Positions 26,297 through 58,258 of a stretch of 64,000 bases of DNA are shown here, piece by piece. The position numbers were made by a program, and so were the translations under genes. Within the stretch, counting starts at the first letter, position 1. Every line of letters starts with the position of its first letter. The stretch comes from Vulcanimicrobiota bacterium. Lineage in GTDB: Bacteria > Vulcanimicrobiota > Vulcanimicrobiia > Vulcanimicrobiales > Vulcanimicrobiaceae. The DNA lies in contig OY969579.1 of the NCBI GenBank assembly GCA_963701255.1, forward strand, positions 2,669,702 through 2,733,701. The letters run 5' to 3'. The notes beneath the pieces are model-generated. The model was not told where the DNA came from, made no database searches, and saw only the letters and a list, made by a program, of their open reading frames with translations.

Positions 26297-26785
26297 ATGC
26301 TCTTGGACGCACGCCAGACCACGACCACGGTCGCGCTACCGAACTTCGGTGAGTGCACGTTTGCCGAGAGCGAGGTCATCAACTTCCCCTGGGGTCTGCC
26401 TGGCTTCGCCGATCTGCACCGCTTTTTGGTGCTCGCGAGCGCGGAACAAGCCGGCTACATCTGGCTGCAGAGCCTCGATGACACCAGCGTCGCCCTGCCG
26501 CTGTGCGATCCGTGGTCGCTCTTCGACGACTATGAAGCACCCCTGCCGCAATATGCCAAGGAGTCGCTCGGGCTCGAGAACCCCGACGACTTCTGTCTGA
26601 TGTGCGTCTGCGTCGTCGCGAAGGGAGCCGTGGAGATGACCATCAACCTGCTGGCACCCGTCGTGATCAACCTCAAGACCCGGGTCGCGCGCCAGGTGAC
26701 CCTCGAGAGCCAGCGCTACTCGCTGCGCACGCCGATCCCGCGCCGGCCCGCCGCCGAGCCTGCCTTAGAGGTCCTCTCGACCTAG
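26297..26785 (+). CDS. fliW: flagellar assembly factor FliW
   Basis: FPWGLPGF.....F.L......Y.WLQS.D....A.P..DPW.....YE and NLLAPVVIN are FliW (DUF180) signatures. Adjacent to csrA. Confidence 0.92.
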
Positions 26786-26825
26786 CCGGGCAAGGACCGG
26801 GGAACTGCCACGGAGGGCGCCCGAC

Positions 26826-27122
26826 ATGCTCGTACTCTCGCGAAAACTCAATCAGGCGATCATGGTGGGCGACAACGTCCGGATCGTCGTCGTGTCGGTT
26901 GACCGCGACCAGGTCAAGTTGGGCATCGATGCCCCCCGCGAGATCCCCGTCCACCGCTCCGAGGTGTACGAGGAGATCCAGCGCGTGAACCGTGCTGCGG
27001 CGGGTCTTCCCGCCGAACCGTCCGCCGCCCCGTCCACGACGGAGGCGGCGCCCGTGCGCCCCGGGCGCTCGGTGAATCCAGCGGCCCTGAGTCCGCGCCG
27101 GCCACCCAAGAAAAAGAGCTAA
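26826..27122 (+). CDS. csrA: carbon storage regulator CsrA with a ~30-aa C-terminal extension
   Basis: [49 protein letters not shown] is canonical CsrA. It is followed by a tail rich in Ala, Pro and Ser that ends in basic residues (PKKKS). Confidence 0.95.
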
Positions 27123-27147
27123 AGTACGGGCCGGTTTGGACCGAAAA
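27120..27147 (+). promoter_or_regulatory. sigma28-type promoter candidate upstream of flagellin
   Basis: TAAA(27120-27123, overlapping the csrA stop)-N16-ACCGAAAA(27140-27147), 6/8 to GCCGATAA. This predicts a leader of about 75-80 nt. Confidence 0.5.
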
Positions 27148-27157
27148 ACCTATGGTA

Positions 27158-27223
27158 GGGCGTCCGGATGACTCCCTCAACGAACTTGGCCATCACACAC
27201 GTGTGTCTACTTTTCATGGAGGA
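27158..27223 (+). promoter_or_regulatory. flagellin 5' leader with two CsrA-type GGA sites and a 12-nt palindrome
   Basis: Hairpin GGGCGTC-CGGAT-GACTCCC (27158-27176) puts GGA in the loop. The palindrome ACACACGTGTGT is at 27195-27206. The SD GGAGGA (27218-27223) contains GGA, 5 nt before ATG 27229. Confidence 0.5.
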
Positions 27224-27228
27224 ACCCA

Positions 27229-33678: not shown

Positions 33679-34050
33679 ATGGATCCCGCGCGCGAGATCG
33701 TCTTGCTCGTCAACGAACTGGAGCGGCTGCTGGTCGCGGCGGAGGACATCCTGGTCGAACGCGACTGGCCGGCCCTCGAACGCTCGGTGGCCGATCAACG
33801 GCGCGTGATGCACGCGCTCGAGAAGGCGATCTCGGCCACCGATGGTTCGCGGCCGGACGCATTCGACAACGAGTTGCGCATGCGGATCACCCGCAGCGAC
33901 CAGCGGCGTGCCGACCAGCTACGCCGGCTCGAGGCCTTCCGCGACGCGCTCGCCTCACGCCTGGGTGTGATGGCGCGGGCCAAAGCGATGCGCCGTGCCG
34001 CTCGGCCGATCGGCGGACCGGTCCCCGCGCTCATCAACTCGCTGCGCTAG
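33679..34050 (+). CDS. FliT/FlgN-like helical protein (hypothetical flagellar chaperone)
   Basis: 123-aa all-helical, charged ORF 1 nt after fliS. The assignment is positional only. Confidence 0.45.
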   Translation: MDPAREIVLLVNELERLLVAAEDILVERDWPALERSVADQRRVMHALEKAISATDGSRPDAFDNELRMRITRSDQRRADQLRRLEAFRDALASRLGVMARAKAMRRAARPIGGPVPALINSLR

Positions 34051-34060
34051 CGATCGCGCT

Positions 34061-34831
34061 TTAGTCGACGATCACGTAATCGAGCACGGCTCGCTCGTGG
34101 CGCTCGTGCGCGCGCGGTCCGTTTTCGTCGAACGGCACGAGCGCGTAGCGCGGACCGGGCTGCGCGACCAACATCCGTTCGTGGGCGGTCTCGGCGGGCG
34201 ATTCCCAGCGCACGGGCTCGACGACGCCGCGGTCGCGGTCGAAGTGCCCGCACCGTACCCCCGCGTGCAGCGCGACGCCGAATCCGGCCCGCCGGATGCG
34301 CTCGCAGAAGAGATAGTCTTCGTTACAGACGCGAACGCGAGCGGCACCCTCTTCGATATAGATTTGGGTCGCGAAGTAGGGGCGAGCGAGCGCCCGCAGA
34401 ACTGAGGTCCGCAGCAGAACGCAGCCAAACCCGACGGCATCGACCGGAACGATGCGATCGGTGAAGCCGGGGACGCTTCCCCCCGTCGTGTCGGCGGAGG
34501 ACCAGCGGGACGCGGCCATCGGCCGGATCCCGTCGCGCGAGTAGTAGAGCGCGCCGACGACGGCGAGCGACGGATCGAGCACCAGGGCGTCGCAAAGCGT
34601 CGTGAGTGCGTCCGGCGCAAAGGTCATATCGTCGTCGATCATCGCCAGGAAATCTGCTTGCACCGCGAGCGCCCGGCGCACGGCGAGTTCGCGCTGGGCC
34701 GGGATGAAGTTTCCGCTGACGACGTAACGGTCGAAGTCGGTGACCTCGGGCGGAAGCGTCAGCTTCGCGAGCGCGCTCAAGAACGGCTGCGTCGGCCGGC
34801 CGCCGTTGGGGAGCGCGAGCAAGAGCTTCAA
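34061..34831 (-). CDS. GT2-like glycosyltransferase (256 aa)
   Basis: TTG start in TTGA overlap with the upstream gene. Segments FLAMIDDDMTF (DxD), GFGCVLLR and EDYLFCERIRRAGF are typical of GT-A family 2. Confidence 0.75.
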   Translation of the reverse strand: MKLLLALPNGGRPTQPFLSALAKLTLPPEVTDFDRYVVSGNFIPAQRELAVRRALAVQADFLAMIDDDMTFAPDALTTLCDALVLDPSLAVVGALYYSRDGIRPMAASRWSSADTTGGSVPGFTDRIVPVDAVGFGCVLLRTSVLRALARPYFATQIYIEEGAARVRVCNEDYLFCERIRRAGFGVALHAGVRCGHFDRDRGVVEPVRWESPAETAHERMLVAQPGPRYALVPFDENGPRAHERHERAVLDYVIVD

Positions 34832-36339
34832 CCGAGTGCTCCCTCGAGGGCGGCGAGCACGGCCTTGGCCGCCGTGTCGAGTTCGGGATCGCTCTCGCGA
34901 AAGAGCGACACACTGCGCGCCAGCTTCGCGCGCAAGAAGATGCGGCTGATCGCAGCACCCGCTTGCGCGGCGTACGACGCGAGGGCGGCGGCGAGCTGCC
35001 CGCGCGCCTCCGCATCCGCCAGCGCCGCATCGCCCGGGGCCAGCCCGACGAAGAACTGCGCCGCACGCAAGAACGGGTGCGCGGATTCGTTGGCGAGCGT
35101 CCGGCCGATGAAGGCGATCTCGGCGGGCCGGAAGGCGCGCACGAGCGTCACCGCGCCGGCCGGGGCCGGCGTCAACTCGAACCGTCCGCTGCGCTCGGGG
35201 ATCTCCGGGGGGAACGGCGGCAGCGCGGCCGCGACGTTTTCCGGGATGATGGTCTTGCCGAGCCGGGAGGTGATCAGGGCTTTGGAGAGCAGCCGCTCTT
35301 GGGCGGCCAGAAAGGCCCCGATCGCGGCGGCATCGCCCTGGGCGTCGAGCGGATCGCGGGTGGCCAGGGCGTTGAGGACGAGATAGTGGGCGATCATCCC
35401 CGAGCGGCGTTCGCCGGTGAACAGCGCAGCGAGCGAGCCGTGGCGCTTGCGGTCGAGCGTGACCTGCAAGACGAACCCGCCGTGCGCCGTGCCCACCGGG
35501 CCCCGCGGGGCCGGCTCGGGCTCAGGCTCGGCTTGCGGAGCCGGTTGGAGCGCCGCGCGGATGGGCGGCGCCGGGAGCGCGGTCGTGCGGGGCGGCGCCG
35601 GCGGCAGCGTCAGCGGCGGGGGTGGTGCCGGCGGCGGTGGCGCCGGTGCAGGCGGCAGCACCGGTTCGTAGTGCTCGGCCGCCTGCGCGAAGGCTGGACC
35701 GGTGCCGGGCACTTCAGCCGGCGGCTCGAGCGCTTCTTCCTCGGTGTCGAGTTCGTAGAACGGGCGCTCCGGCTGGGCGAAGGCTTCCAGCGAGCGTTTG
35801 GCGCCCCGGGTGAGGCGCAGCGCGCGCGGACCGGCGATCCCGGCCCCGGCGTCCGCCTGCAGATAGGGGGCCAGCGTGATATCGTCGAGCCCGAGGTCGA
35901 CCGCGAAGCGCAAGACGACCGTCCGCCGTTCGCCGGGTCCCAACGCGGCCAGCGGCACACCCGCCTCGAGCAGCGCTTCGGCCACCTCGTCGTCGCGCTC
36001 CGCGTCGTTGATGCGCAGCGAGCCGGACGCTAGGCGCAAGCCTCGTGGGAGCGGGAGGATCGCCCGGAGGCCCGCCACGGGCTCGGTGCCGTCGTTCATG
36101 ATCGCCAGGCTCACGGTGACGACGGCACCGGGAATCAGACCGCTGCGCGGTTGCGCATCGAGCGTCGCCGTGAGCAGCGGGCCGCGCTCAACCGGGGTCT
36201 CCTCGATCGGCGCACCATGCGGCAGGTCCACGCTCGCCTGGCGCTGCCAGCCGAACCGCGGCGCCGGGGCGCCGATGCGCACGCGCTGCAAGTCCACCAG
36301 GCGCATATCGGCGCTCCGCTCGAAACGGTCGTCGTTCAT
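34828..36339 (-). CDS. hypothetical protein: DUF11/CARDB-like Ig-fold N-domain, proline-rich linker, helical C-domain
   Basis: 503 aa with no signal peptide. VVTVSLAIMNDGTEPVAGLRAILPLPRGL..RRTVVLRF resembles a conserved-repeat Ig fold. The linker is PPAPAPPPPAPPPPLTLPPAPP. ATGA coupling to the ATPase gene. Confidence 0.6.
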   Translation of the reverse strand: MNDDRFERSADMRLVDLQRVRIGAPAPRFGWQRQASVDLPHGAPIEETPVERGPLLTATLDAQPRSGLIPGAVVTVSLAIMNDGTEPVAGLRAILPLPRGLRLASGSLRINDAERDDEVAEALLEAGVPLAALGPGERRTVVLRFAVDLGLDDITLAPYLQADAGAGIAGPRALRLTRGAKRSLEAFAQPERPFYELDTEEEALEPPAEVPGTGPAFAQAAEHYEPVLPPAPAPPPPAPPPPLTLPPAPPRTTALPAPPIRAALQPAPQAEPEPEPAPRGPVGTAHGGFVLQVTLDRKRHGSLAALFTGERRSGMIAHYLVLNALATRDPLDAQGDAAAIGAFLAAQERLLSKALITSRLGKTIIPENVAAALPPFPPEIPERSGRFELTPAPAGAVTLVRAFRPAEIAFIGRTLANESAHPFLRAAQFFVGLAPGDAALADAEARGQLAAALASYAAQAGAAISRIFLRAKLARSVSLFRESDPELDTAAKAVLAALEGALG

Positions 36340-37310
36340 ATGCGGCGGGTGAAGAAGCGGGCGAGCAGCGATGGTCGCGAACCGCTTTCCGCGCCGGGCT
36401 CCGGACGCTGCGGCACGGGTTGGGGAGCCGGCCGCGCAGCCGGCGCGGCACGCTGCGCCGGGGCCGTCAGAGCGGCGGCGGCGGCCGGGACCGCCAGGCC
36501 GCGCGCGCGGAGCGCCGCCACGACGTGATCGACGTTGACGATCTCCGCGCTGCGATCGGCCGCCTCGCCCATCGCGCCGCGCACGACGTTCGCCAGCCGG
36601 CGCGGCAGCCCGCCCCCCGCGGCGACCACGGCTTCGAGTGCGTCGGAGGTGAAGATGCGCGCCGCCGGCGGCTTGCCGGCTTGCTCCAGCCGGTACTCGA
36701 TGAGCGCGGCCGCCGCACCCGGATCGAGCCGTTCGAGGTGCAGAAAGCGATCGACGCGATCGGCGAGATTCTCGCGCGCCAGGATGCGCGCCTCGAGTTC
36801 GGGCTGTCCGAAGAGCACGAGGTTGAGCAGTTTGCGCTGCGGGATTTGGAAATTGAGCAAGAGCCGCAAGGTTTCAAGCCCGTCGTCGCTGAGGTTTTGC
36901 GCTTCATCGATGAGCAGGACCAGCGACTTTTCTTCGAGGACGGCCGTGTCGAAGAAGAAATTCTTGATCGCGTTCTTCAATGCGGCGCTCGAACGCGGCG
37001 GCAAGCCCAGGCCGAAGACGCGACCGATCGCCAGCAAGAACTCGACGTCACTTGCGAACGTCGGGTCGAGGATTTTCCCGATCACGACGTTTTCGTCGCG
37101 CAAGAGCGACCCTTCGATATAGCCGGAGAGCAACGTCTTCCCGGTCCCGGGTGAACCGATGACGACCGTCAAGCCGCGCGACTCGGCGATCCCGGAGAGT
37201 ATGACCAGGGCGTCGCGGCGCAGTGCCGGCAACTCACAGTAAAACTGCGGATCGGCCGTGTCGAGAAATGGATCGCGTTGAAGCCCGAAGTGCTGGTAGT
37301 ACCGGCGCAT
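36336..37310 (-). CDS. ExeA/GspA-like AAA ATPase (AAA_22 type)
   Basis: N-terminal YYQHFGL..DPF, Walker A GSPGTGKT, Walker B LLIDEAQNL, and LLLNFQ....LLNLVLFGQPEL, typical of the ExeA family. The C-terminal tail is Pro/Ala-rich with no PG-binding domain. Confidence 0.8.
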   Translation of the reverse strand: MRRYYQHFGLQRDPFLDTADPQFYCELPALRRDALVILSGIAESRGLTVVIGSPGTGKTLLSGYIEGSLLRDENVVIGKILDPTFASDVEFLLAIGRVFGLGLPPRSSAALKNAIKNFFFDTAVLEEKSLVLLIDEAQNLSDDGLETLRLLLNFQIPQRKLLNLVLFGQPELEARILARENLADRVDRFLHLERLDPGAAAALIEYRLEQAGKPPAARIFTSDALEAVVAAGGGLPRRLANVVRGAMGEAADRSAEIVNVDHVVAALRARGLAVPAAAAALTAPAQRAAPAARPAPQPVPQRPEPGAESGSRPSLLARFFTRRI

Positions 37311-37353
37311 TATCGACGGGGTTTCCCCGTAGGGCGCGAAACTCTTACGGGGC

Positions 37354-39945
37354 GTGGATTATTCGATCGTCATCCCCGTTTTCAATCGAGCGGATTTGAC
37401 ACGTCAGTGCCTGGCAGCGCTGCTCCCGGCACTCGCGAACGCCGGAAACGGCGAGGTAATCGTCGTCGACAACGGTTCCGAACCCGACACGGCTGCCGTT
37501 TTGGCCGATTTCCCCTGGGTTCGCGTGATTCGAAACGACCGCAACCTCGGCTTCGCCGCAGCGTGCAACCAAGGGGCACGTGCGGCGAGCGCACGCATCG
37601 TGATCCACCTCAACAACGACACGGTCGCGCCGGGAGCATGGGTCGAATCGCTGCTCGCCCACTTCGCCGATCCCGGCGTCGGCGTCGCCGGCGCGAAGCT
37701 GCTTTTCGGGAACGGCACGATCCAGCACGCCGGCGTCGCCATCGGGGGTGCTCGTTTCGGACCCGAGGGGATCGGCCCGTTCCATATCCTCGCGCAGGCC
37801 CCGGGGGATGCTCCGGCAGCCAACCGGACGCGCGACTTCGCCGCGGTTACGGGCGCGTGTCTCGCGACGCCGCGCGCACTCTTCCTGGAACTGGGCGGCT
37901 TCGATGAATGCTACTGGAACGGCTACGAAGACGTGGACTACTGCTTCAAAGTCGGTGCGCGCGGCTTGCGCGTGGTCTACGAGCCGGCGGCGTGGTTGTA
38001 CCATCTCGAATCACAATCCGGGGTGCAGCGCAAGCGCCGGTTGATGCATAATCTGCGCGAACTCGGGGCCCGCTGGGGCGAGCGTATCCTGCCCGACACC
38101 AACCGACTCTGCGGCCTGACGGGTCTCGTGCTCCGGGAGCGTTCGGTGCGCGGCGTGGTCGCGTACGCCGCGCATCCGCTCCCGCCCGCAAGCGTGCTCG
38201 TACACGGACCCGCTCCGCCGGATGCCGCCGCCTTCGCCGCCCGCTTACGCGGCGGCTCGGTCGTTCCTGAGGCGATCGTGTGGGCGGCCGACGGTCCGGC
38301 CCCGGCGGGCTGCGAGCCGGCCGCCGATTGGTTGGGGGCGGCGCGTTCGCTCACCGAGATCCGTGCCGAGCGGTACGTCGTCTTCATCGACACGCGCAGC
38401 GTTCTGGAGGCCGAGTGGCTGGCGGGTCTGATCGACGGGGTCGAATTCGGCGACAACGTCGCGGCTGCGGCGATCGGCGAGCCAGGCCCGGTGGCGCCGT
38501 ATGCCTTGAACGCGCGCGCGACCATCGTCGCGCTGCGGCGCGTCCCGCAAGACATACGCATCGAAGCGGCCGCATCGTGCGATGATGCGCTCGCCGGTTT
38601 CACACAAGCGCTGGTCGCGCGCGGCCGCGCGCTGCGCTTGGACCCCCGCCCCGGCCGCGTCGAGGCGACCATCGCACCCGACGCAGCGCGCCTGGAAGTA
38701 CTCTCGATGCCGCTCGAGGGCGGCGCCACGCTCGCGTCGATCGTGATGCTGAGTTGGAACGCGCCCGAGTACACGGAGATCGCGATGCGCTCGATTCGGG
38801 CGAATACGCGGCCGGGTACCTACGAGGTCATCATCGTCGACAACGGCTCGGATGACGACACGATCGCGCGCCTCAAGAAGCTGACCGGCGTTCGCATCCT
38901 CTACAACCGGCGCAACTTGGGCTTCGCGCGCGGCTGCAACCAGGGGATCGCAGCGGCCCGCGGTTCGCACATCGTGCTGCTGAAGAACAACGTCTTCGTA
39001 ACGGACGGCTGGCTGGACCGCTTGCTCGAGGCGCAGCGCTTCAACCCCTGCGCCGGGGTCACGGCGCCGCGCTCGAACAACGTCGCGGGCTCTCAGCGCC
39101 TGGACTCTTCGCCCTACTCCAACGAAACCGAATTGGCCGCGTTCGCGCTGCGGCGCGCGCGTGATTGGCATCGGCGCAACTACCACACCGATCGCGCGAT
39201 CGGTTTCTGCCTGTGCATCGACCGGCGCGTGATCGACGAAATCGGCGGTATCGACGAGCGCTACGGCGTGGGCAATTTCGAGGACGATGATTTTTGCGTG
39301 CGCGTGCGGGCCGCGGGCTACGAGATCCTGGTTTGCGAAGACGTGCTGGTCCATCACTTCGGGAGCATGAGCTTCAAGGCGAACAATGTCGACCATCGCG
39401 ATCGGATGGAGCGCAACTGGGCCGTGTTCGCGCAGCGCTGGGATCTCCCGCGCGCATATCCCGTCAACGGCTACGATGCCACCCCGGCGATCGAGCGCGG
39501 CTTCGATCGCGCGCGGGATTACGTCGCATTGCCGGACGAGCGCGAAGGCGGCGCGACCCGTTTGGGGGTGAAAGGGTTAACCCTCGTCGCGATCGTCGAA
39601 CGGGAAGCGGACTGGACCGCGATCGGAGCGGTCGCGAACAACTACCTGCGCGCCCTGCGAGCCGGCGACAACGTCGTCTTGGCGATCGCCGCGCGCGGCG
39701 AACCGGACGCCGCGACGATCGCTGGGCGCCTGCGGAAGACGCTTGAGAAGTACGGCCTGGAGCCCGCCGCGGCGGCCGGCGTCATCGTCGAAGACGTCGC
39801 CGATCTGGGCGGCTGGCTCGCGCACTTCGGAACGCGGCGAGTTGCCGTGCGCGCGCACCCGGAACTGCGCGGCATGCGCGAACTCGCCGAGCGCAGTCCC
39901 AGCGCCCTTGCGCGACTCGTGCGGAGCGAACATGCGGGTTCGTGA
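37354..39945 (+). CDS. dual-domain GT2 glycosyltransferase (copy 1, 863 aa)
   Basis: GTG start. Two GT-A cores: YSIVIPVFNR...VVDNGS...NLGFAAACNQG...HLNNDT, and SIVMLSWNA...IVDNGSDDDT...NLGFARGCNQG...LLKNNVFV. The second core lacks the Asp seen in copy 2. Confidence 0.88.
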   Translation: MDYSIVIPVFNRADLTRQCLAALLPALANAGNGEVIVVDNGSEPDTAAVLADFPWVRVIRNDRNLGFAAACNQGARAASARIVIHLNNDTVAPGAWVESLLAHFADPGVGVAGAKLLFGNGTIQHAGVAIGGARFGPEGIGPFHILAQAPGDAPAANRTRDFAAVTGACLATPRALFLELGGFDECYWNGYEDVDYCFKVGARGLRVVYEPAAWLYHLESQSGVQRKRRLMHNLRELGARWGERILPDTNRLCGLTGLVLRERSVRGVVAYAAHPLPPASVLVHGPAPPDAAAFAARLRGGSVVPEAIVWAADGPAPAGCEPAADWLGAARSLTEIRAERYVVFIDTRSVLEAEWLAGLIDGVEFGDNVAAAAIGEPGPVAPYALNARATIVALRRVPQDIRIEAAASCDDALAGFTQALVARGRALRLDPRPGRVEATIAPDAARLEVLSMPLEGGATLASIVMLSWNAPEYTEIAMRSIRANTRPGTYEVIIVDNGSDDDTIARLKKLTGVRILYNRRNLGFARGCNQGIAAARGSHIVLLKNNVFVTDGWLDRLLEAQRFNPCAGVTAPRSNNVAGSQRLDSSPYSNETELAAFALRRARDWHRRNYHTDRAIGFCLCIDRRVIDEIGGIDERYGVGNFEDDDFCVRVRAAGYEILVCEDVLVHHFGSMSFKANNVDHRDRMERNWAVFAQRWDLPRAYPVNGYDATPAIERGFDRARDYVALPDEREGGATRLGVKGLTLVAIVEREADWTAIGAVANNYLRALRAGDNVVLAIAARGEPDAATIAGRLRKTLEKYGLEPAAAAGVIVEDVADLGGWLAHFGTRRVAVRAHPELRGMRELAERSPSALARLVRSEHAGS

Positions 39946-41923
39946 CGACTTCTCATGGCTGGGTCCGGCGCTCGGGGCCGGGCGATTCGCCCAACTGCGT
40001 GCCGCAGATCTGGCCGTTGCCCGGTTCGAACCCGTCTTCCGCGACAAGCGCGGCGTCGGCGTGCTCGATCTCACGTTTGCACACGCCGGCGAGGCGTTCG
40101 CGCTTTGTGCGCTGTTGGTCGATCTCGTCGCGCTTTGGACCCTCGAAGCACCGCCGCTCGTGTGGCCCGCGACGCTCGCCGCAGGGCTCGATCCCGATTT
40201 TGCCGAGGCCGTAGAAGCGCGCGTCTATCCGTGGTTGCGCACGCTCGTGCGGGGCGTCGCCTCGCCCGGCGAGCGTCTGCGCAGCTACGGCGACGAGGCG
40301 GCGTTCGAGCGGGCACGCGCGGCGGGCTGGGTCGGCGCTATCCCCTGCGGGGCCGCGATCGTCGCGATGGCGCCGTTCGCCTACGCGCGCCGCTTCGCGC
40401 GCGATGCGCAGGTTTCGATCGCGGCCCGGCACGGCGCGCTGGCCGCCGCGCTGCTGCGCGACCGCGCGCGCGCGGTGCGGCTCGTCGCCGGCGCCTCGGC
40501 GCCGGAGGTGGCGTGGTACGGCGTCGCCGACTTGCTCGCCCCGTCGGCCGCGGTCGCCGCGGCCGACGTAGCGATCGTCGACCGCGCAGCCGCGGGACTT
40601 GGGGCCGCGACGATCGTCGCACTCGACGACGTGCCCGACGGCGGCCGGACGATCGACGTGCCGCAACCGGTGCCGCTCGACAACGGCTTTACCTTCGACG
40701 CCGCCGACGCGCCGGTGGTGCGCACGTTCGGCGTGTGGGCGCGACCGGCCGCGTCGCGTGCGCCCGCGCCGGCCGTCCCCGTCGCGCGCCGCGCGCAAGC
40801 GGATGGTCTGATCGGATTCGTGCTGCGTTCCGACGCGGGCTATGCGCCCGACGCGGACACGGACGAACTGCGCGTCCTGCGCGAGCTACTCGAAATCGAA
40901 GGACTGCGCAGCTTCGTGACGACCGATCCGCGCGATCCGCAACTCGGGCAAGCCGATCTGGTGCACGTCTTTGCCGCCTACGACGACCGGCATCTCGGGG
41001 CGGCGGCCGAGAGCGCGCTGCGCGGGCGCAAGCCGCTGGTCATCAGCCTCGAACCCCTCGCCGCCTACGCGAACTGGCAAGAAGACGCCTTGCTCATCGC
41101 CGTACAGATCGGGCTCGACCGCGTCGAGCGAGCGTTCTTCTTCGAGAACTATGCCGAGCGCCGCATCATCGTGAGGGGAACGCCGTTGCTCCCCGATGCC
41201 GCGCAGGTCCAGCAGCGGCGTGAGGAATTTCTCGTGAGCGCGCGCGCGGCGAGCGCCGTCATCACGGCCGCGTGTGACGAACCGGCGCTGCTCGGCCGCG
41301 AATTCGGCCTGCCGCCGGACGGCTTGATCGCGGGCGCGATCGCGCTGGGCGGCGAGCCGGACGGCGGCGACGTGGTGAGCGCGCTCGTGCCGCCGGGTCC
41401 GTTCGTGCTCATGCACGCGCCGCTCGTGCGGCGTTCGCATCTCTTGCTGGTGCTCACCGCACTCGCCCCGCTGGACATCGACGTCGTCGTCGCCGGCGAA
41501 CCGGCCGATGTCGACACCGCGATCTCCCTGCGCGCGGGCGCGGGGCGGGAGGTTCTCTTCCTGACCGAGCCGGCGCCGGCGGTGCTTGCCGGGCTCTATG
41601 CGCGCGCCGCCGTTTACGTGGAGCCCTCGCTGCGCTCGCGCTCTCCGGCACGGCTCGCGCGCGCGGTTCGTGCCGGTGCGTTACCGCTGGTTGCGCGCGA
41701 TGGACCGCTCGCTCGTTTGGTCCCGCCGGAACTCACCTTTTCGATCAGCGACCCGGCCGAGATCGCGGCGGCGATCGGGGGTGCGCTCGCTCGCCCCGAT
41801 CGGGTCGAACGCGCCCGGATGCTTGCCGCGGCGCTCGGCGGACTCAGCGATCCCGGACGCGCGCGCGACGCAGCGCTTGCCGCCTATGCGCGTGCGGCGG
41901 CTCGATCCGCGCCGGCATCCTGA
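39932..41923 (+). CDS. hypothetical protein with GT-B (GT4-like) C-terminal half (copy 1, 663 aa)
   Basis: Met64 of track ORF 39743, overlapping the upstream stop by 14 nt. The C-terminal PFVLMHAP..RRSHLL...VVAGE...LYARAAVYVEPS...RLARAVRAGALPLVA resembles a GT-B nucleotide-sugar binding half. Confidence 0.65.
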   Translation: MRVRDDFSWLGPALGAGRFAQLRAADLAVARFEPVFRDKRGVGVLDLTFAHAGEAFALCALLVDLVALWTLEAPPLVWPATLAAGLDPDFAEAVEARVYPWLRTLVRGVASPGERLRSYGDEAAFERARAAGWVGAIPCGAAIVAMAPFAYARRFARDAQVSIAARHGALAAALLRDRARAVRLVAGASAPEVAWYGVADLLAPSAAVAAADVAIVDRAAAGLGAATIVALDDVPDGGRTIDVPQPVPLDNGFTFDAADAPVVRTFGVWARPAASRAPAPAVPVARRAQADGLIGFVLRSDAGYAPDADTDELRVLRELLEIEGLRSFVTTDPRDPQLGQADLVHVFAAYDDRHLGAAAESALRGRKPLVISLEPLAAYANWQEDALLIAVQIGLDRVERAFFFENYAERRIIVRGTPLLPDAAQVQQRREEFLVSARAASAVITAACDEPALLGREFGLPPDGLIAGAIALGGEPDGGDVVSALVPPGPFVLMHAPLVRRSHLLLVLTALAPLDIDVVVAGEPADVDTAISLRAGAGREVLFLTEPAPAVLAGLYARAAVYVEPSLRSRSPARLARAVRAGALPLVARDGPLARLVPPELTFSISDPAEIAAAIGGALARPDRVERARMLAAALGGLSDPGRARDAALAAYARAAARSAPAS

Positions 41924-41965: not shown

Positions 41966-44614
41966 ATGGAGTACTCGATCATCATCCCGGTGTTCAACCG
42001 GGAGGATCTCACCCGGAATTGCCTCGCGGCACTGTTGCCGACCGTCGCCGAGGCGGGTACGGGTGAAGTCATCGTGATCGACAACGGTTCGGCGGCGGCG
42101 ACGGCGGACGTCCTGGCCGCGTTTCCCTGGGTCCGGGTCATCCGCAACGAGCAGAACCTCGGCTTCGCGGCGGCCTGCAACCAGGGCGCACGGGCGGCCT
42201 CGGGCCGCTTCCTCGTGCACCTCAACAACGACACGATCCCGCTCGCCGGCTGGCTCGCGCGGCTGCTCGCGGTCGCGCGCGAGCCGGGTGTCGGCGTGAC
42301 CGGCGCGCGCCTGCTCTACGCGAACAACCGCATCCAGCACGCGGGCGTGCTGCTCTTCCCCGCCCGCTTCGGTCCCGAGGGCGCGGGCCCGTTCCATTTC
42401 TTGATGGGCCGCCCGGCGGACACGCCCGCGGCCCTCATTCGAACGGATTACGAAGCCGTGACCGGCGCGTGTCTGGTGACGCCGCGCGAACTCTACCTCG
42501 AACTGGGCGGCTTCGACGAATCGTTTTGGAACGGCTACGAAGACGTCGACTACTGTTTTTCCGTGCGCGCCCGCGGGCTGCGCGTGGTCTACGAACCGGC
42601 CGCCGTGCTCTATCATCTCGAGTCGCAGTCGGGCGTTCAGCGCAAGCGGCGTTTGGTGCACAACGTTCGCGAACTCGCCGCGCGCTGGGGCACGAAGATC
42701 CAGCCCGACCACAATCGCCTCTGCGGCCGCACCGGATACATCCGGCGCGAAGCGTTTCGCGGTTTCAATCGCACGTTCGTCCCGCTTTCGAACCCCGCCG
42801 TCACGGTGCTCGTTCACGGCGACGCGCCGGACGACGCGGCCGCGTTCGCGGCGCGCCTGCGTGAGAGCTCACCGGCCCCCGAGACGATCGTCTGGGCCGC
42901 GGGCGGACCGGCACCGGCCGGTACCCAGGCCGCCGATGGTTCGCCGGTCGCGCTGGCGCGCGCGCTGACCGAGTCGAGAGCCGATCGCTACGTCGCGTTC
43001 ATCGATACGCGCACGGTGCTCGAACCACAGTGGCTGGGCGAGTTGATCGATTCGGCCGAGTTCTCGCAAGACGTTTGCGCGGCGACCGTCGTACCGCCCG
43101 AAGAACGCGCGGCAACGACCACGCCGCTGGGCGCCGATGCGCGCTGCACGCTGGTCGCGACGCGGCAGTGGCCGCAGGACGTTCGCATCGATCCGGCCGC
43201 GACCTCGCTCGATGCGGCGCTGGTCGATTGGACCACCCGTGCGGTCGCGCTGGGACGGGCGGTGCGCGCCGTGCCGCGCCGGATCGCCGACATCGGGCCG
43301 CCGCTCCCCGGCGAACACGAAATCTTGCGCCGGGCCGATCCCGTGCGGCTCGAAGAACTCTGCCGCACGCCGTCTTCGCTCGGCCCGGTGTTCGCCTCGA
43401 TCGTCATGCTGAGTTGGAACGCGGCGCAGTATACGAAACTCGCGGTCGAGTCGATTCGCGCCTCGGCGAGCGCTGTGCCCTACGAGATCATCATCGTCGA
43501 CAACGGCTCCGACGAGCCGACGCGCGCGATGCTCGCCGAACTGACGGACGTACGGGTCATCTACAACGACCGTAATCTCGGCTTCGCGCGCGGCTGCAAT
43601 CAAGGCATCGCAGCCGCCGGTGGGACGCACGTCGTCCTGCTCAACAACGACATCTTGGTCAACGACGGCTGGCTCGACCGGCTGATCGACGTGCACCGCC
43701 GCGATCCACTCGTCGGCGTCTCCGCGCCGCGCAGCAACAGCGTCGCCGGCGATCAACAGATCTCCGACTTCTCGTATACCGACCGCGAGGGCATGCTCGC
43801 CTACGCGGCTCGCCGCGCGAAGACCTGGCGCGGCATCCACTACCGGACGGACCGGGCGATCGGGTTCTGTTTGTGCATCGCGCGCCGCGTGATCGACGAA
43901 GTCGGCGGGATCGACGAGCGCTACGGCGCCGGCAACTTCGAGGACGACGACTTCTCGATCCGGGTGCGGGCGGCCGGATACGAGATCGCCGTCTGCGAGG
44001 ACGTGTTCATCCATCACTTCGGCAGCGCGACCTTCAAGGCCAACAATCTCGACTATGCCGCATCGATGCAGAAAAACTGGGCGATCTTCGCGGCGCGCTG
44101 GGGATTTCCGCAAGCGTATCCGGTGAACGGGTATCAAGCCGAGCCCGCCATCCGGCGCGGGTTCGTGCGTGCGCAGCACTATGTCGCGTTGCCCGTCACG
44201 GCGCAGCCGGTGCAAGCGGCGCCGCCACCCGGCAAGACGTACGGTGTCGCACTGCTCGCGATCGTGGACGGTGAAGCGGCCTGGGGCCGGATCGGTCCGA
44301 TCGTGACGAACTACGCCCGCGCGCTCGCGCTCGGGGACGACACGGTGCTCGCGCTGGCTGCACTCGAACCGATGGATGCCAACACGCTGGCGGCGCGGGT
44401 CGAACGCGCGCTGAGGAAAGCCGGCATCGCGCCTCAGGATGCGCCGGACATCGAGATCGCCGACGTGTCGGACATTGCCGATTGGCGCTCGGGCGTCTGT
44501 GCCGGGCGCACGATCGCGGTCGAGCGGGACCTGCGTTTGATCGGTTGCGACCTGCTCGACGATCGCAGCCCCAGCGGCCTGCGGCGCCTGCTGCGTACGC
44601 CGGCGGCGGTGTAA
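41966..44614 (+). CDS. dual-domain GT2 glycosyltransferase (copy 2, 882 aa)
   Basis: Collinear paralog of 37354..39945 (by eye, well over half of N-terminal residues are identical). Both GT-A cores retain NND (HLNNDT, LLNNDILV). Confidence 0.88.
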   Translation: MEYSIIIPVFNREDLTRNCLAALLPTVAEAGTGEVIVIDNGSAAATADVLAAFPWVRVIRNEQNLGFAAACNQGARAASGRFLVHLNNDTIPLAGWLARLLAVAREPGVGVTGARLLYANNRIQHAGVLLFPARFGPEGAGPFHFLMGRPADTPAALIRTDYEAVTGACLVTPRELYLELGGFDESFWNGYEDVDYCFSVRARGLRVVYEPAAVLYHLESQSGVQRKRRLVHNVRELAARWGTKIQPDHNRLCGRTGYIRREAFRGFNRTFVPLSNPAVTVLVHGDAPDDAAAFAARLRESSPAPETIVWAAGGPAPAGTQAADGSPVALARALTESRADRYVAFIDTRTVLEPQWLGELIDSAEFSQDVCAATVVPPEERAATTTPLGADARCTLVATRQWPQDVRIDPAATSLDAALVDWTTRAVALGRAVRAVPRRIADIGPPLPGEHEILRRADPVRLEELCRTPSSLGPVFASIVMLSWNAAQYTKLAVESIRASASAVPYEIIIVDNGSDEPTRAMLAELTDVRVIYNDRNLGFARGCNQGIAAAGGTHVVLLNNDILVNDGWLDRLIDVHRRDPLVGVSAPRSNSVAGDQQISDFSYTDREGMLAYAARRAKTWRGIHYRTDRAIGFCLCIARRVIDEVGGIDERYGAGNFEDDDFSIRVRAAGYEIAVCEDVFIHHFGSATFKANNLDYAASMQKNWAIFAARWGFPQAYPVNGYQAEPAIRRGFVRAQHYVALPVTAQPVQAAPPPGKTYGVALLAIVDGEAAWGRIGPIVTNYARALALGDDTVLALAALEPMDANTLAARVERALRKAGIAPQDAPDIEIADVSDIADWRSGVCAGRTIAVERDLRLIGCDLLDDRSPSGLRRLLRTPAAV

Positions 44615-51617: not shown

Positions 51618-51618
51618 A

Positions 51619-53630: not shown

Positions 53631-54090
53631 GCGCCTGCACGAACGGGTCGTCCGCGGGGAGCGGGTTCCCGTCCTTCTCGATGCGGCCGCCGAGCGGAGC
53701 GTGCTCGAGCGCGAACGCGATCGCAATCGTATCCTCGAAGCGCGGAAGGTCCGCCGCGCTGCGCAGGACGGTCTCTTCGAGCGCGGCGTGCAGCGTGCAC
53801 CCCGCTGCGAGGACGCGCTCGTAGACGGCCAGCCGCTGCTCGCGTTTCTCGGGCAGCATGAACATGCTGAAGAAGATGATCCCCCCGAGCTTGGGGAGTT
53901 CGTCGAGCAGCGTCGCCAGGATCATGTACGAACCGCGCATGGCGTACTCAGTGAGGCTGAGCTTGAACGCGAGACCGTTGCGCTGCGCGTAGGTCCGCAC
54001 GACAAGGTTCTGCACGCGTTGCGGATACAACGTCCCGCGCACCGGCCGGCTCGCGATGTAGCCGCGAAAGCCGTCCCGTTCTTCAGACAT
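53599..54090 (-). CDS. small conserved carbohydrate-cluster protein (possibly the LIC12192-type 'sporadic carbohydrate cluster' family)
   Basis: 163 aa. FRGYIASRPVRG...PQRVQNLVVRTYAQRNG is recalled as that TIGRFAMs-type family. It pairs with the adjacent 2OG oxygenase; not search-verified. Confidence 0.4.
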   Translation of the reverse strand: MSEERDGFRGYIASRPVRGTLYPQRVQNLVVRTYAQRNGLAFKLSLTEYAMRGSYMILATLLDELPKLGGIIFFSMFMLPEKREQRLAVYERVLAAGCTLHAALEETVLRSAADLPRFEDTIAIAFALEHAPLGGRIEKDGNPLPADDPFVQALTRVPSPSST

Positions 54091-58257: not shown

Positions 58258-58258
58258 G

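What the first reader, a model, noticed from the sequence alone, without database searches (positions are those of the whole stretch)
34061..37310. Divergent three-gene operon: ExeA-like AAA ATPase, DUF11-like/proline-rich protein, GT2
The three minus-strand genes are translationally coupled (ATGA at 36336-36339, TTGA at 28-31 of 348xx). They are an ExeA/GspA-type AAA ATPase lacking the usual peptidoglycan-binding tail, a 503-aa protein (no signal peptide) with an Ig-like DUF11/CARDB-type domain, a long PPAP linker and a helical C-domain, and a small GT2. ExeA-like ATPases are known from type II secretion (secretin assembly) and from PEP-CTERM exopolysaccharide loci. A cytoplasmic-looking version wedged between fliS/fliT and a GT island is not a combination I recognise. 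It could be a substrate-handling or assembly module for the glycosylation machinery, or an independent system.
Basis: partly seen in the sequence, partly recalled or inferred. Interest (0 to 1): 0.7.

Follow-up and report, generated by a model that had tools for sequence, protein, structure and literature searches.

The report
ATPase–adaptor–glycosyltransferase trio beside flagellar genes
Three tightly coupled genes (a secretion-type ATPase without its usual membrane and cell-wall parts, a new two-domain protein, and a small sugar-transferring enzyme) sit at one fixed place beside the flagellar genes in nearly all related loci examined from the mostly uncultured phylum Eremiobacterota, and probably help attach sugars to flagellar proteins, although this has not been tested in a lab.

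Summary
Three minus-strand ORFs (324, 503 and 256 aa) lie exactly at 34061-37310 and overlap by ATGA and TTGA.

- A is an ExeA/GspA-type AAA_22 ATPase. It has no TM segment and no peptidoglycan-binding domain. It ends in a conserved amphipathic basic tail that resembles the MinD membrane-targeting helix.
- B is a new family: N-terminal helix, DUF11-like Ig domain, conserved ERPFYE motif, variable proline-rich spacer, and a confidently modelled alpha/beta C-domain with no detectable structural relative.
- C is a minimal GT-A glycosyltransferase with DxD and ED motifs and a conserved His.

The trio keeps its order and coupling in 13 further non-redundant loci, nearly all labelled Eremiobacterota/Vulcanimicrobiota. 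In 12 of them it is convergent with flaG-fliD-fliS plus a FlgN/FliT-like ORF. On the other side lie variable, wholly cytoplasmic sugar-nucleotide and GT islands. One MAG fuses A and B into one ORF and lacks flagellar neighbours.

Best reading (confidence about 0.4): a membrane-tethered module in which the ATPase and the adaptor assist the bare GT in cytoplasmic protein glycosylation of the flagellin type. It is not a T2SS, PEP-CTERM or MSHA component. I found no description of such a trio. I rate it a new variant of a known kind, of moderate interest.

The parts
36336..37310 (-). Gene A: ExeA/GspA-family AAA_22 P-loop ATPase, 324 aa, with no TM segment and no PG-binding domain.
   Evidence: Pfam AAA_22 1.3e-20. 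NCBIfam TIGR03015 at 133.6 bits, below the 324.5 cut-off. 54-77 % identity over more than 120 clusters. Walker A, Walker B and RR residues are invariant. Maximum KD19 is 1.56, so there is no TM segment. The nearest solved relatives are MuB (3.6e-4) and TnsC (0.016).
37233..37289 (-). A residues 8-26: N-terminal motif FGLxRDPFLDTxDPxFYxE.
   Evidence: Invariant columns L10 R12 D13 P14 F15 L16 D17 T18 D20 P21 F23 E26 in 16 sequences. This stretch falls inside the TIGR03015 alignment, which starts at residue 4.
37134..37157 (-). A residues 52-59: Walker A motif GSPGTGKT.
   Evidence: G52 G55 G57 K58 T59 are invariant.
36894..36917 (-). A residues 132-139: Walker B motif LIDEAQN.
   Evidence: D135 E136 A137 Q138 N139 are invariant.
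36378..36497 (-). A residues ~272-311: Pro/Ala-rich spacer of variable length.
   Evidence: This block of alignment A2 is poorly aligned and varies in length.
36339..36377 (-). A residues 312-324: conserved amphipathic basic C-terminal tail (SLLARFFTRRI; family consensus FFxRLFARR). Putative membrane-targeting helix.
   Evidence: An aromatic/hydrophobic-basic tail is present in all 16 aligned homologues; the FFxRLFARR-type form is seen in 14. The hydrophobic moment is 0.59-0.77, against a protein mean of 0.34, and ranks 8th of 316 nine-residue windows. The resemblance to the MinD MTS is from my own knowledge.
34828..36339 (-). Gene B: 503-aa two-module protein of a new family; proposed adaptor.
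   Evidence: 36 word-index hits, nearly all labelled Eremiobacterota, at 26-72 % identity. Roughly 60-80 full-length representative clusters of 458-743 aa. No Pfam or PDB sequence match. AF2 model with mean pLDDT 80.8.
36274..36312 (-). B residues 10-22: conserved N-terminal helix (SADMRLxELQR).
   Evidence: A10 D11 R13 L14 R19 are at least 90 % conserved. Helix 10-22 in the model. This helix is internal in the L009 A-B fusion.
35812..36177 (-). B residues 55-176: Ig-like beta-sandwich of the DUF11/NEW3 (CARDB-like) type.
   Evidence: pLDDT above 90. Foldseek gives only Ig-like hits in PDB and BFVD, including a DUF11 protein. Family members hit DUF11 and NPCBM_assoc. The family profile hits multi-repeat giant proteins.
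35746..35769 (-). B residues 191-198: conserved short motif ERPFYExD.
   Evidence: P193 F194 E196 are invariant; R192 and Y195 are at least 90 % conserved.
35500..35727 (-). B residues ~205-280: Pro-rich spacer, variable in length and composition.
   Evidence: Alignment columns 250-470 are mostly gaps, and the spacer accounts for the family length range of 458-743 aa. pLDDT is about 40-60 in this stretch.
34831..35496 (-). B residues 282-503: alpha/beta C-terminal domain with no detectable relative.
   Evidence: pLDDT 91-98. It is the best-conserved part of B. No C-domain match appears among the top PDB or BFVD Foldseek hits, nor with the profile against PDB sequences.
34061..34831 (-). Gene C: 256-aa minimal GT-A glycosyltransferase (GT2-like). 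It is a catalytic domain only.
   Evidence: Pfam PF13641 at 28.5 bits against a cut-off of 27. 430 homologues of nearly fixed length (mostly 256 aa), at 52-73 % identity. AF2 pLDDT 94.9. Foldseek finds GT-A enzymes (STIV A197 3e-11, Mimivirus R699, COLGALT1, LH3, ppGalNAc-T2).
34628..34636 (-). C residues 66-68: DDD (DxD metal/nucleotide-sugar motif).
   Evidence: D66 D67 D68 are invariant in 28 sequences. E171, D172 and H196 are also invariant.
37311..37353 (.). 43-nt divergent intergenic region between A and the first dual-GT2 gene of the island. It presumably holds or adjoins the promoters.
   Evidence: A CTAAG-like box lies about 40 nt upstream of A in 6 of 11 loci and resembles the -35 half of the local flagellin sigma-28-type promoters, but the -10 half is poor. 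The hairpin in this region is not significant (z = -0.27).
33679..34050 (+). Context: 123-aa ORF in the FliT position after flaG-fliD-fliS (faintly FlgN-like). It is convergent with C, and the two stop codons are 10 nt apart.
   Evidence: FlgN E = 0.0058, below the cut-off. A similar ORF is found by tblastn in 8 of 11 loci, at 38-54 % identity, and an ORF of similar size is called at that position in the others.

Best explanation
The trio is a conserved, lineage-specific accessory module of the cytoplasmic glycosylation machinery that decorates flagellar proteins.

C is a bare GT-A catalytic domain with no acceptor-recognition domain of its own. B is its adaptor or specificity factor. In B, a conserved N-terminal module (helix, Ig-like domain, ERPFYE motif) and a conserved C-terminal alpha/beta domain are joined by a freely varying spacer, and they connect the enzyme to the ATPase and/or to the acceptor protein. 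A is an ExeA-family AAA+ P-loop ATPase. Like its nearest solved relatives MuB and TnsC, it would act as an ATP-dependent oligomeric 'matchmaker' rather than a motor. It would be held at the inner face of the cytoplasmic membrane by a C-terminal amphipathic helix on a flexible Pro/Ala spacer, and so would concentrate the B-C complex where flagellar substrates queue for export.

Because A and C stay 50-75 % identical while the neighbouring sugar pathways change completely between loci, C probably transfers a common sugar or acts on a constant acceptor. The variable glycosyltransferases would build the lineage-specific glycan.

Shown here: gene structure, families and folds, cytoplasmic prediction, tail amphipathicity, synteny, and one A-B fusion. 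Inferred: complex formation, membrane binding, the acceptor, and the role of ATP.
For: 1. Synteny. In 12 of 13 further non-redundant loci, with B identity down to 26 %, A-B-C lies convergent with a FlgN/FliT-like ORF, fliS and fliD.
2. Neighbours. The other flank always holds sugar-nucleotide and GT genes, but of different chemistry in different loci: heptose-type in the window, Pse/Leg-type NeuB and CMP-transferase in L011, dTDP-sugar, aminotransferase and methyltransferase genes in L004, L007 and L012, and PAPS synthesis plus a sulfotransferase in L014/L015. In L013 and L009, A lies directly downstream of, and co-directional with, GT or sugar-modifying genes.
3. Cytoplasmic island. About 20 island proteins, including the trio, show no TM protein, flippase, polymerase or exporter, whereas a control ABC transporter shows 4 TM segments. 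This is the signature of cytoplasmic protein O-glycosylation and not of EPS or LPS synthesis.
4. C looks catalytically competent. D66-D68, E171, D172 and H196 are invariant, and the GT-A model has pLDDT 94.9. Several of its closest structural neighbours are protein glycosyltransferases (COLGALT1, LH3, POMGNT1, ppGalNAc-T2). The 256 residues are all catalytic domain.
5. A looks catalytically competent (Walker A, Walker B and RR invariant) and carries a conserved amphipathic tail.
6. A and B are one in-frame 888-aa ORF in L009, and no alternative frame there encodes a canonical tail. This is a Rosetta-stone hint of physical coupling, and it makes the N-terminus of B internal.
7. Translational coupling is conserved (and most gene tables of the related loci).
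8. Precedent. Flagellin glycosyltransferases either carry their own acceptor-binding TPR domain or need a separately encoded specificity factor (GlfM with Maf-2) (bioRxiv 10.1101/2023.12.03.569772; FlmG, PMC7591256).
Against: No experiment or expression data exist. Complex formation could not be modelled, because no multimer tool was available.

A GT2-TPR protein next to fliC is conserved in these loci and is the more obvious direct flagellin transferase, so the acceptor of C is uncertain.

No known flagellin glycosylation system uses an ATPase.

In L009 the trio has no flagellar neighbour within 9 kb downstream; chaperone-usher genes lie there instead. Linkage to the flagellum is therefore not obligatory.

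The structural similarity of C to protein glycosyltransferases is only generic GT-A (TM about 0.5).

A sigma-28-type promoter upstream of A could not be established.

The A-B fusion rests on a single MAG contig.
Confidence: 0.4

Rival explanations
1. The trio is a glycosylation or modification module whose target is not flagellin. Candidate targets are another cytoplasmic or exported protein, such as pilins, a surface protein, FliD or the hook, or a small molecule. It would sit in the island only because it shares nucleotide-sugar supply. A and B would still act as scaffold and adaptor for C.
For: In L009 the trio is next to sugar-modifying genes and a chaperone-usher pilus cluster, with no fliS or fliD nearby. 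The conserved GT2-TPR gene beside fliC already provides a candidate flagellin transferase. C stays conserved while the island chemistry varies.
Against: 12 of 13 loci keep the trio within 0-25 nt (about 115 nt in L014) of the flagellar chaperone operon, across B identities down to 26 %. Such tight linkage is rarely kept without a functional tie. No alternative acceptor gene is co-conserved.
Confidence: 0.2
2. The trio is a flagellar assembly or regulatory factor in which sugar transfer is secondary. For example, it could be a checkpoint or localisation device at the export gate, or a bifunctional GT/regulator like Listeria GmaR. The membrane-tethered ATPase would sense or organise export substrates or their chaperones.
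For: The trio is fixed in a convergent position against fliS and the FlgN/FliT-like chaperone gene, with little or no spacer: 10 nt in the window and overlapping in L005. The ATPase is the most conserved of the three proteins. FlgM, FliW and CsrA regulation is present in the locus. The GmaR precedent is from my own knowledge.
Against: There is no DNA-binding or known regulatory domain. C retains all catalytic residues. L009 has no flagellar neighbours. A is operon-linked to GT or sugar genes in L013 and L009.
Confidence: 0.15
3. The pair A-B is an ExeA/ExeB-like envelope-assembly factor. As GspA-GspB help the T2SS secretin through peptidoglycan, A-B would help the flagellar P/L rings, or another outer-membrane structure, to assemble.
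For: A belongs to the ExeA/GspA/MshM/TIGR03015 group. ExeA works with a partner, ExeB, that has a proline-rich linker and a C-terminal domain (PMC4098917 abstract; the linker is from my own knowledge). The organism is diderm, with FlgH and FlgI.
Against: Neither A nor B has a signal peptide, a TM segment or a PG-binding domain, so neither can reach the periplasm. B does not match the GspB family. No secretin or T2SS gene was found in the Pfam-annotated parts of the window or in the flanks of the related loci (and the gene tables). The hypothesis leaves the coupled GT unexplained.
Confidence: 0.05
4. B is itself a flagellar type III export substrate or a surface-exposed flagellar component. DUF11 domains and Pro-rich spacers are typical of surface proteins. 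C would glycosylate B, and A would act as its chaperone or loader.
For: The DUF11-type Ig domain is otherwise seen in giant multi-repeat proteins, which are typically surface proteins (own knowledge). B evolves fast and has a variable spacer. Its N-terminal ~50 residues are partly disordered. The gene lies in a flagellar late-gene neighbourhood.
Against: The N-terminal helix is strongly conserved, unlike export signals. It becomes internal in the L009 A-B fusion. No Ser or Thr is invariant in B. AAA_22 ATPases are not unfoldases or export chaperones (family knowledge).
Confidence: 0.05

Closest known systems
ExeA/GspA (with ExeB/GspB), the type II secretion secretin-assembly factor
   Same: Both have the same ATPase family (AAA_22 P-loop domain with the N-terminal FGL..PF-type motif). 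Both work with a co-encoded partner that has a proline-rich linker and a folded C-terminal domain. The ATPase is anchored at the inner membrane.
   Different: The trio has no TM helix, no periplasmic peptidoglycan-binding domain, no GspB homology and no secretin or T2SS genes. Anchoring would be through an amphipathic tail. A glycosyltransferase is translationally coupled. The context is flagellar and glycosylation-related.
XrtA/PEP-CTERM system-associated ATPase (TIGR03015) and MshM of the MSHA pilus: TM-less ExeA-like ATPases
   Same: TIGR03015 is the best family-model match (8.5e-39 over residues 4-243). Both are soluble, roughly 270-320-aa ExeA-like ATPases. TIGR03015 members sit in polysaccharide-related loci. 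The function of the family is unknown.
   Different: The score of 133.6 bits is far below the 324.5-bit cut-off. No exosortase, PEP-CTERM or pilus genes are nearby. The trio has its own conserved C-terminal tail and its own B and C partners.
Tripartite flagellin glycosylation (Maf-2 + GlfM + flagellin), as opposed to bipartite TPR-bearing transferases (Maf-1, FlmG, GmaR)
   Same: The logic is the same: a catalytic transferase that lacks an acceptor-binding domain relies on a small cis-encoded specificity factor. Both are located in a flagellin glycosylation island, and both are cytoplasmic.
   Different: C is GT-A, not Maf. B is a 503-aa protein with an Ig domain and an alpha/beta domain, not a four-helix bundle. 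There is an additional ATPase. Nothing has been shown biochemically.
MuB/TnsC-type AAA+ target 'matchmakers'
   Same: These are the nearest solved sequence relatives of A (3.6e-4 and 0.016). They suggest ATP-dependent oligomerisation that recruits an enzyme to its target.
   Different: The similarity is very distant and limited to the P-loop core. Those proteins bind DNA and act in transposition. Nothing suggests that A binds DNA.
MinD-type C-terminal membrane-targeting sequence
   Same: Both have a short basic amphipathic helix at the extreme C-terminus of a P-loop ATPase (compare KGFLKRLFGG in E. coli MinD with FFxRLFARR here).
   Different: The ATPase family is unrelated. Here the helix follows a 30-50-residue Pro/Ala spacer. 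Membrane binding has not been tested.

Membership tests
ExeA/GspA (T2SS assembly ATPase) | AAA_22 P-loop ATPase domain with intact Walker A and Walker B motifs and the N-terminal ExeA-type motif | tested here: met
   PF13401 at 1.3e-20. The TIGR03015 alignment starts at residue 4. GxxGxGKT, DEAQ and the N-terminal FGLxRDPF residues are invariant.
ExeA/GspA (T2SS assembly ATPase) | Transmembrane segment followed by a periplasmic peptidoglycan-binding domain (PF01471) | tested here: not met
   There is no such Pfam hit. Maximum KD19 is 1.56, so there is no TM segment. The protein ends at residue 324.
ExeA/GspA (T2SS assembly ATPase) | Co-encoded GspB/ExeB partner and a T2SS/secretin neighbourhood | tested here: not met
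   B has no Pfam hit. No secretin or Gsp genes were found in the Pfam-annotated parts of the window or in the flanks of the related loci.
XrtA/PEP-CTERM-associated ATPase (TIGR03015) | Score at or above the curated cut-off of 324.5 bits | tested here: not met
   133.6 bits.
XrtA/PEP-CTERM-associated ATPase (TIGR03015) | Exosortase/PEP-CTERM/EPS-export gene neighbourhood | tested here: not met
   The neighbours are flagellar genes and cytoplasmic sugar/GT genes. No membrane exporter is present.
MshM (MSHA pilus ATPase) | Location in an msh type IV pilus operon with MshN and the other msh genes | tested here: not met
   No pilus genes lie near the trio in 13 of 14 loci. L009 has chaperone-usher genes, not type IV pilus genes. 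'MshM' appears only as an automatic JGI name.
DUF11 / TIGR01451 repeat (CARDB-like Ig domains) | Domain score above the curated threshold | tested here: inconclusive
   For the window protein, TIGR01451 gives E = 0.083 and 12.9 bits against a cut-off of 24, and there is no Pfam hit. Of 24 family members, 8 hit PF01345 (best 1.3e-4) and 9 hit PF10633. The family profile hits multi-repeat proteins strongly. The fold is an Ig-like beta-sandwich.
GT2 / GT-A glycosyltransferases | Family model at or above the cut-off | tested here: met
   PF13641 at 28.5 bits against a cut-off of 27, which is marginal. PF00535 at 20.4 bits is below its cut-off of 23.3.
GT2 / GT-A glycosyltransferases | GT-A Rossmann-like fold with a DxD motif and a catalytic acidic residue | tested here: met
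   The AF2 model has pLDDT 94.9. 314 PDB matches have E <= 1e-3, and nearly all of the top 50 are GT-A enzymes. DDD66-68, E171/D172 and H196 are invariant. Enzymatic activity cannot be tested here.
Tripartite flagellin glycosylation system (Maf-2/GlfM) | Maf-type transferase and a four-helix-bundle GlfM | tested here: not met
   No Maf domain was found in the trio or in the Pfam-scanned island proteins. B is an Ig domain plus an alpha/beta domain. The analogy is in logic only.
Flagellin glycosylation island component (functional class) | Adjacent to flagellin and late flagellar genes and to cytoplasmic nucleotide-sugar/GT genes, with no polysaccharide export genes | tested here: met
   and 12 of 13 related loci.
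Flagellin glycosylation island component (functional class) | Loss of the gene alters the flagellin glycan or motility | not testable with these tools
   This needs genetics or reconstitution. The only cultured member found in the literature search, Vulcanimicrobium alpinus, lacks flagella (PMC9758169).
MinD-like membrane-targeting sequence | C-terminal amphipathic helix that binds membrane | tested here: inconclusive
   The tail is amphipathic and conserved. Membrane binding was not tested.

The most novel reading that the evidence does not exclude
A TM-less ExeA-family AAA+ ATPase acts as an ATP-dependent, membrane-tethered matchmaker. Through a dedicated Ig-domain adaptor, it couples a minimal glycosyltransferase to substrates waiting at the flagellar export gate. 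This would be the first energy-dependent step described in bacterial cytoplasmic protein O-glycosylation. It would also be the first mechanistic role for the soluble ExeA/MshM/PEP-CTERM-type ATPases that recur in glycan and pilus loci with no known function.
Probability: 0.2. Interest if true: 0.7.

Novelty: new variant of a known kind. Interest (0 to 1): 0.5.

Why it matters
Soluble ExeA-like ATPases (MshM, the PEP-CTERM-associated ATPase) are widespread but functionally obscure. Here one of them is locked to a defined enzyme and a defined adaptor in a defined cellular context, with one natural ATPase-adaptor fusion. That makes it a tractable entry point into what this ATPase family does.

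For flagellar biology, the trio would add an ATPase-assisted, adaptor-dependent branch to the known bipartite and tripartite flagellin glycosylation schemes.

For Eremiobacterota, it marks a conserved, phylum-typical addition to the flagellar locus, next to unusually large and variable glycosylation islands (heptose, nonulosonic-acid, dTDP-sugar and sulfated variants).

The B C-terminal domain is a confidently predicted fold with no detectable relative.

The impact is limited for now. The lineage is almost entirely uncultured and all functional statements are inferences.

Tried and rejected
- Sequence searches against solved structures. A gave only weak MuB, TnsC and Clp P-loop hits. C gave none. 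The B profile hit only a designed protein.
- Foldseek with the B model against PDB and BFVD. Only the generic Ig-like domain matched, and nothing matched the C-domain.
- Defence-system check with PADLOC. Only trivial P-loop matches appeared, so this was rejected.
- Paralogues of A, B or C within the window. None found. A 14-residue resemblance between the N-terminus of A and the N-terminus of the 709-aa unknown protein is probably chance, because its paralogue lacks it.
- Sigma-28 promoter upstream of A. The strict pattern matches only the fliC promoter in the window. A CTAAG box recurs upstream of A in 6 of 11 loci, but I derived it after the fact and its -10 half is poor. Inconclusive.
- Hairpins in the 43-nt divergent intergenic region. 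These are no better than shuffled sequence (z = -0.27).
- Apparent extra A-B fusions among the representative hits (P0241, P0219, P0260). Their upstream parts are Arg-rich out-of-frame translations of the ATPase gene and are gene-calling artefacts. Rejected; only L009 is a genuine in-frame fusion.
- The genome-contig scan returned only 3 loci, because a single peptide pattern was used. It therefore says nothing about absence elsewhere.
- Literature searches for ExeA-like ATPases in flagellar or glycosylation contexts, and for TIGR03015, returned nothing relevant.
- The FliK-like ruler idea for B (variable Pro-rich linker plus a C-terminal alpha/beta domain). Rejected: there is no Flg_hook/FliK match, the N-terminal helix is conserved, B is coupled to cytoplasmic enzymes, and its N-terminus is internal in the fusion.

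Full report

Yes. The ORF list gives three minus-strand ORFs at exactly the reported coordinates:
- A: 36336..37310, 324 aa, ATG start.
- B: 34828..36339, 503 aa, ATG start.
- C: 34061..34831, 256 aa, TTG start.

The junctions read directly are ATGA at 36336-36339 and TTGA at 34828-34831. C is preceded by a GAGGGAG Shine-Dalgarno-like box. GC3 is 0.82-0.87 in the three frames. Each protein has numerous homologues, so these are genes and not chance ORFs of a 68 % GC sequence.

- On the + strand lie flgG-flgA-flgH-flgI, a rod-binding ORF, flgM, flgN, flgK, flgL, fliW, csrA, fliC, a GT2-TPR gene, flaG, fliD, fliS and a 123-aa ORF.
- That last ORF ends 10 nt from the stop codon of C.
- 43 nt upstream of A, on the + strand, an island starts. 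It holds two dual-GT2 genes, each followed by a ~665-aa unknown protein, then GT4 and GT2 genes and a nucleotide-sugar pathway of the heptose type.

Source names attached to the homologues place the window in Eremiobacterota (= Vulcanimicrobiota): Ca. Velthaea, Baltobacteraceae and Elarobacter.

**2. The three proteins**

*A.* A matches Pfam AAA_22 (1.3e-20). Its best NCBIfam match is the XrtA/PEP-CTERM-associated ExeA-like ATPase TIGR03015 (8.5e-39, residues 4-243), but at 133.6 bits against a cut-off of 324.5. It has no peptidoglycan-binding domain and no hydrophobic segment.
- In 16 homologues, the N-terminal motif FGLxRDPFLDTxDPxFYxE, Walker A (GxxGxGKT), Walker B (DEAQN) and a PRR motif are invariant. 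The protein therefore looks like an active ATPase.
- After the ATPase domain comes a Pro/Ala-rich spacer of variable length. The protein ends in a conserved basic-aromatic tail, SLLARFFTRRI in the window and FFxRLFARR as consensus.
- The hydrophobic moment of this tail is 0.59-0.77, against a protein-wide mean of 0.34. From my own knowledge it resembles the MinD membrane-targeting sequence (KGFLKRLFGG).
- I therefore infer peripheral membrane attachment in place of the TM helix of ExeA.
- The nearest solved relatives by sequence are only MuB and TnsC.

*B.* B has no Pfam hit of its own. The AF2 model, built from a 24-sequence alignment, has mean pLDDT 80.8. It shows five parts:
- A short conserved helix (residues 10-22, SADMRLxELQR).
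- A beta-sandwich at residues 55-176 (pLDDT > 90).
- An invariant motif, ERPFYExD, at 191-198.
- A disordered proline-rich spacer (~205-280).
- An alpha/beta domain at 282-503 (pLDDT 91-98).

The beta-sandwich is of the DUF11/NEW3 type. Eight of 24 family members hit PF01345 and nine hit PF10633. The family profile also matches giant proteins, with up to 41 matched stretches per protein, over exactly this region. Foldseek finds only Ig-like domains, in both PDB and BFVD.

Nothing matches the C-domain. The spacer differs completely in length and composition between homologues, and family lengths run from 458 to 743 aa.

*C.* C is a complete GT-A domain and nothing else.
- The model has pLDDT 94.9.
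- The best structural matches are the minimal GT-A enzyme A197 of STIV (3e-11), Mimivirus R699, and the protein glycosyltransferases COLGALT1, LH3, POMGNT1 and ppGalNAc-T2. TM-scores are near 0.5, so the similarity is generic.
- DDD66-68, YYSRD, GFGC, E171/D172 and H196 are invariant in 28 sequences, and the length is almost always 256 aa.

None of the three proteins has a signal peptide or TM segment.

**3. Conservation and context**

I examined 13 further non-redundant loci: L001, L003, L004, L005, L007 to L015.
- All hold A, B and C in the same order (L010 holds only the 3' part of B, then C), usually with 4-nt overlaps.
- In 12 of them the trio is convergent with a FlgN/FliT-like small ORF, fliS and fliD. 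The spacers run from overlapping (L005) to about 25 nt, with about 115 nt in L014.
- Identity to the window proteins is 52-71 % for A, 49-62 % for C and only 29-50 % for B (down to 26 % in L004). For comparison, FliS is 50-69 % and FliD 42-54 %.
- In the word-index searches, A, B and C hits repeatedly share contig lengths (403724, 285005, 140401, 99154, 36794, 24807, 24392 and others). This indicates co-occurrence on many more contigs (inference).

The opposite flank is always sugar-related, but the chemistry changes from locus to locus:
- Heptose-type genes (SIS, an HldE-like kinase/nucleotidyltransferase, a transketolase, methyltransferases) in the window.
- NeuB, a CMP-transferase and a DegT aminotransferase (Pse/Leg-type) in L011.
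- dTDP-sugar isomerase, aminotransferase and methyltransferase genes in L004, L007 and L012.
- PAPS synthesis and a sulfotransferase in L014 and L015.

In L013 and L009, A lies directly downstream of, and co-directional with, a GT4 gene or sugar-modifying genes.

The window's island has no TM protein, flippase or exporter among about 20 proteins, whereas a control ABC transporter scores four TM segments. This is the pattern of cytoplasmic protein O-glycosylation, not of EPS or LPS synthesis.

Two loci are informative exceptions.
- In L009 (a Vulcanimicrobiota MAG), A and B form one in-frame ORF of 888 aa that still hits AAA_22. No alternative frame encodes a canonical A tail with a stop codon. 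C follows with a 4-nt overlap. There is no fliS or fliD within 9 kb downstream; chaperone-usher genes lie there instead.
- In L011, B is split into ORFs of 152 and 355 aa.

The fusion is a Rosetta-stone hint that A and B act together, and it puts the N-terminus of B inside a polypeptide. It also shows that flagellar adjacency is the rule but not an absolute requirement.

**4. How it most likely works**

- Shown: a competent-looking ATPase with an amphipathic tail; a two-module protein with a free spacer; a competent-looking bare GT-A; obligatory co-occurrence and translational coupling; flagellar and cytoplasmic-glycosylation context; one A-B fusion.
- Inferred: A oligomerises with ATP at the membrane, by family analogy with MuB/TnsC-type matchmakers and ExeA multimers. 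B bridges A, C and/or the acceptor. C transfers a common sugar to a flagellar export substrate, and the variable GTs of the island build the rest.

The logic has a precedent. Flagellin transferases either carry an acceptor-binding TPR domain (FlmG, Maf-1) or depend on a small cis-encoded specificity factor (GlfM with Maf-2) (PMC7591256; bioRxiv 10.1101/2023.12.03.569772). C lacks any such domain, so B is the natural candidate.

I put this at about 0.4. The main weakness is that a GT2-TPR gene next to fliC is also conserved and is the obvious direct flagellin transferase. The acceptor of C is therefore open, and no ATPase is known in any flagellin glycosylation system.

The rivals, with approximate confidence:
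- A glycosylation module with a non-flagellin target (0.2; supported by L009).
- A primarily assembly or regulatory factor at the export gate (0.15).
- An ExeAB-like envelope-assembly factor (0.05; contradicted by the lack of any periplasmic part).
- B as an exported flagellar component (0.05; contradicted by its conserved N-helix, which is internal in the fusion).

**5. Comparison with known systems**

A is a member of the broad ExeA-like ATPase group. It fails the defining features of each named family:
- ExeA/GspA: no TM segment plus PG-binding domain, no GspB partner, no secretin context.
- TIGR03015: score well below the cut-off, and no PEP-CTERM context.
- MshM: no msh operon.

B is a new family with a DUF11-like domain and an orphan C-domain. 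C is a divergent GT2/GT-A enzyme.

My literature searches returned no paper on such a trio or on ExeA-like ATPases in flagellar or glycosylation loci. The cultured Eremiobacterota member found in that search, Vulcanimicrobium alpinus, lacks flagella (PMC9758169).

**6. Verdict**

This is a real, strongly conserved, lineage-restricted three-gene module. It combines known kinds of parts in an arrangement I did not find described, so I rate it a new variant of a known kind. Interest is about 0.5.
- In its favour: it offers a concrete, testable handle on the enigmatic soluble ExeA-like ATPases, and a possible ATPase-assisted branch of flagellar glycosylation.
- Against: all functional statements are inferences, in an essentially uncultured phylum.

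Noticed in passing
window 37354-39945 + 39932-41923 and 41966-44614 + 44614-46611: There are two tandem pairs of a dual-GT2 protein (863 and 882 aa) followed by a ~665-aa protein with no Pfam family. The two unknown proteins are paralogues (42 % identity over 667 aa) with a faint GT-B signal at the C-terminus (E about 0.02). The same pair (dual GT2 plus a 620-700-aa unknown) recurs in most of the related loci, sometimes on the flagellin side of fliD. It is a second conserved unknown of these islands.
   Followed up: partly
window 27120-27228 (upstream of fliC); L001, L003 and L013 flagellin upstream regions: Flagellin genes carry a sigma-28-type promoter, CTAAAG-N14/15-(G/A)CCGA(T/A)A. In four of the five genes the 5'UTR ends in CATGGAGGAA just before the start codon, which looks like CsrA binding sites over the Shine-Dalgarno sequence. 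fliW and csrA lie directly upstream (26297-27122), and flgM and flgN are present. The regulatory layout is Bacillus-like, in a diderm that has FlgH and FlgI.
   Followed up: partly
window 34050-34061; L005 13195-13198: The FlgN/FliT-like ORF and gene C converge with only 10 nt between their stop codons and no terminator-like hairpin. In L005 the two genes overlap by 4 nt. Convergent transcription must collide or read through, so antisense interference between the late flagellar operon and the trio is possible.
   Followed up: no
L009 7028-9694 and 11705-15168: A Vulcanimicrobiota MAG has A and B fused into one 888-aa ORF, with Walker B changed to DEAHN and no canonical Pro/Ala spacer. There the trio lies next to a chaperone-usher pilus cluster (Usher, PapD_N) instead of flagellar genes.
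   Followed up: partly
L011 8495-10004 and 806-7398: In this 2.18-Mb contig, B is split into two overlapping ORFs of 152 and 355 aa. This is either a frameshift or a genuine split into an N-module and a C-module. The divergent neighbours are nonulosonic-acid (Pse/Leg-type) genes: NeuB, CTP_transf_3, DegT and a PseB-like dehydratase.
   Followed up: partly
L014 4508-7904; L015 409-7940: In two loci the genes divergent from the trio encode sulfate activation (CysD-like PAPS_reduct, CysN/C GTP_EFTU+APS_kinase, TauE), and L015 also has a sulfotransferase. This suggests sulfated flagellar glycans in some Eremiobacterota. The source labels of these proteins (Verrucomicrobiae, Acidoferrales) conflict with the Eremiobacterota-type synteny.
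   Followed up: no
window 51021-61917: A cytoplasmic nucleotide-sugar pathway closes the island. It holds a SIS (GmhA-like) isomerase, two epimerases/dehydratases, an APH-type kinase, a split-transketolase-like protein, a PfkB+cytidylyltransferase (HldE-like) bifunctional enzyme, two methyltransferases and an SDR. This is probably a modified, methylated heptose donor.
   Followed up: no
window 44614-44700 (N-terminus of the 665-aa unknown) versus 37262-37304 (N-terminus of A): The unknown protein starts MKTTRYFPEFGLWRDP..., which resembles the ATPase N-terminus MRRYYQHFGLQRDPF (9 of 14 identical, E = 0.14). Its paralogue at 39932 lacks the motif, so this is probably chance, but it touches the hallmark ExeA-type motif.
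   Followed up: partly
L007 13211-14254: One locus has a fourth co-directional gene (347 aa, no Pfam hit) inserted between C and the FlgN/FliT-like ORF.
   Followed up: no
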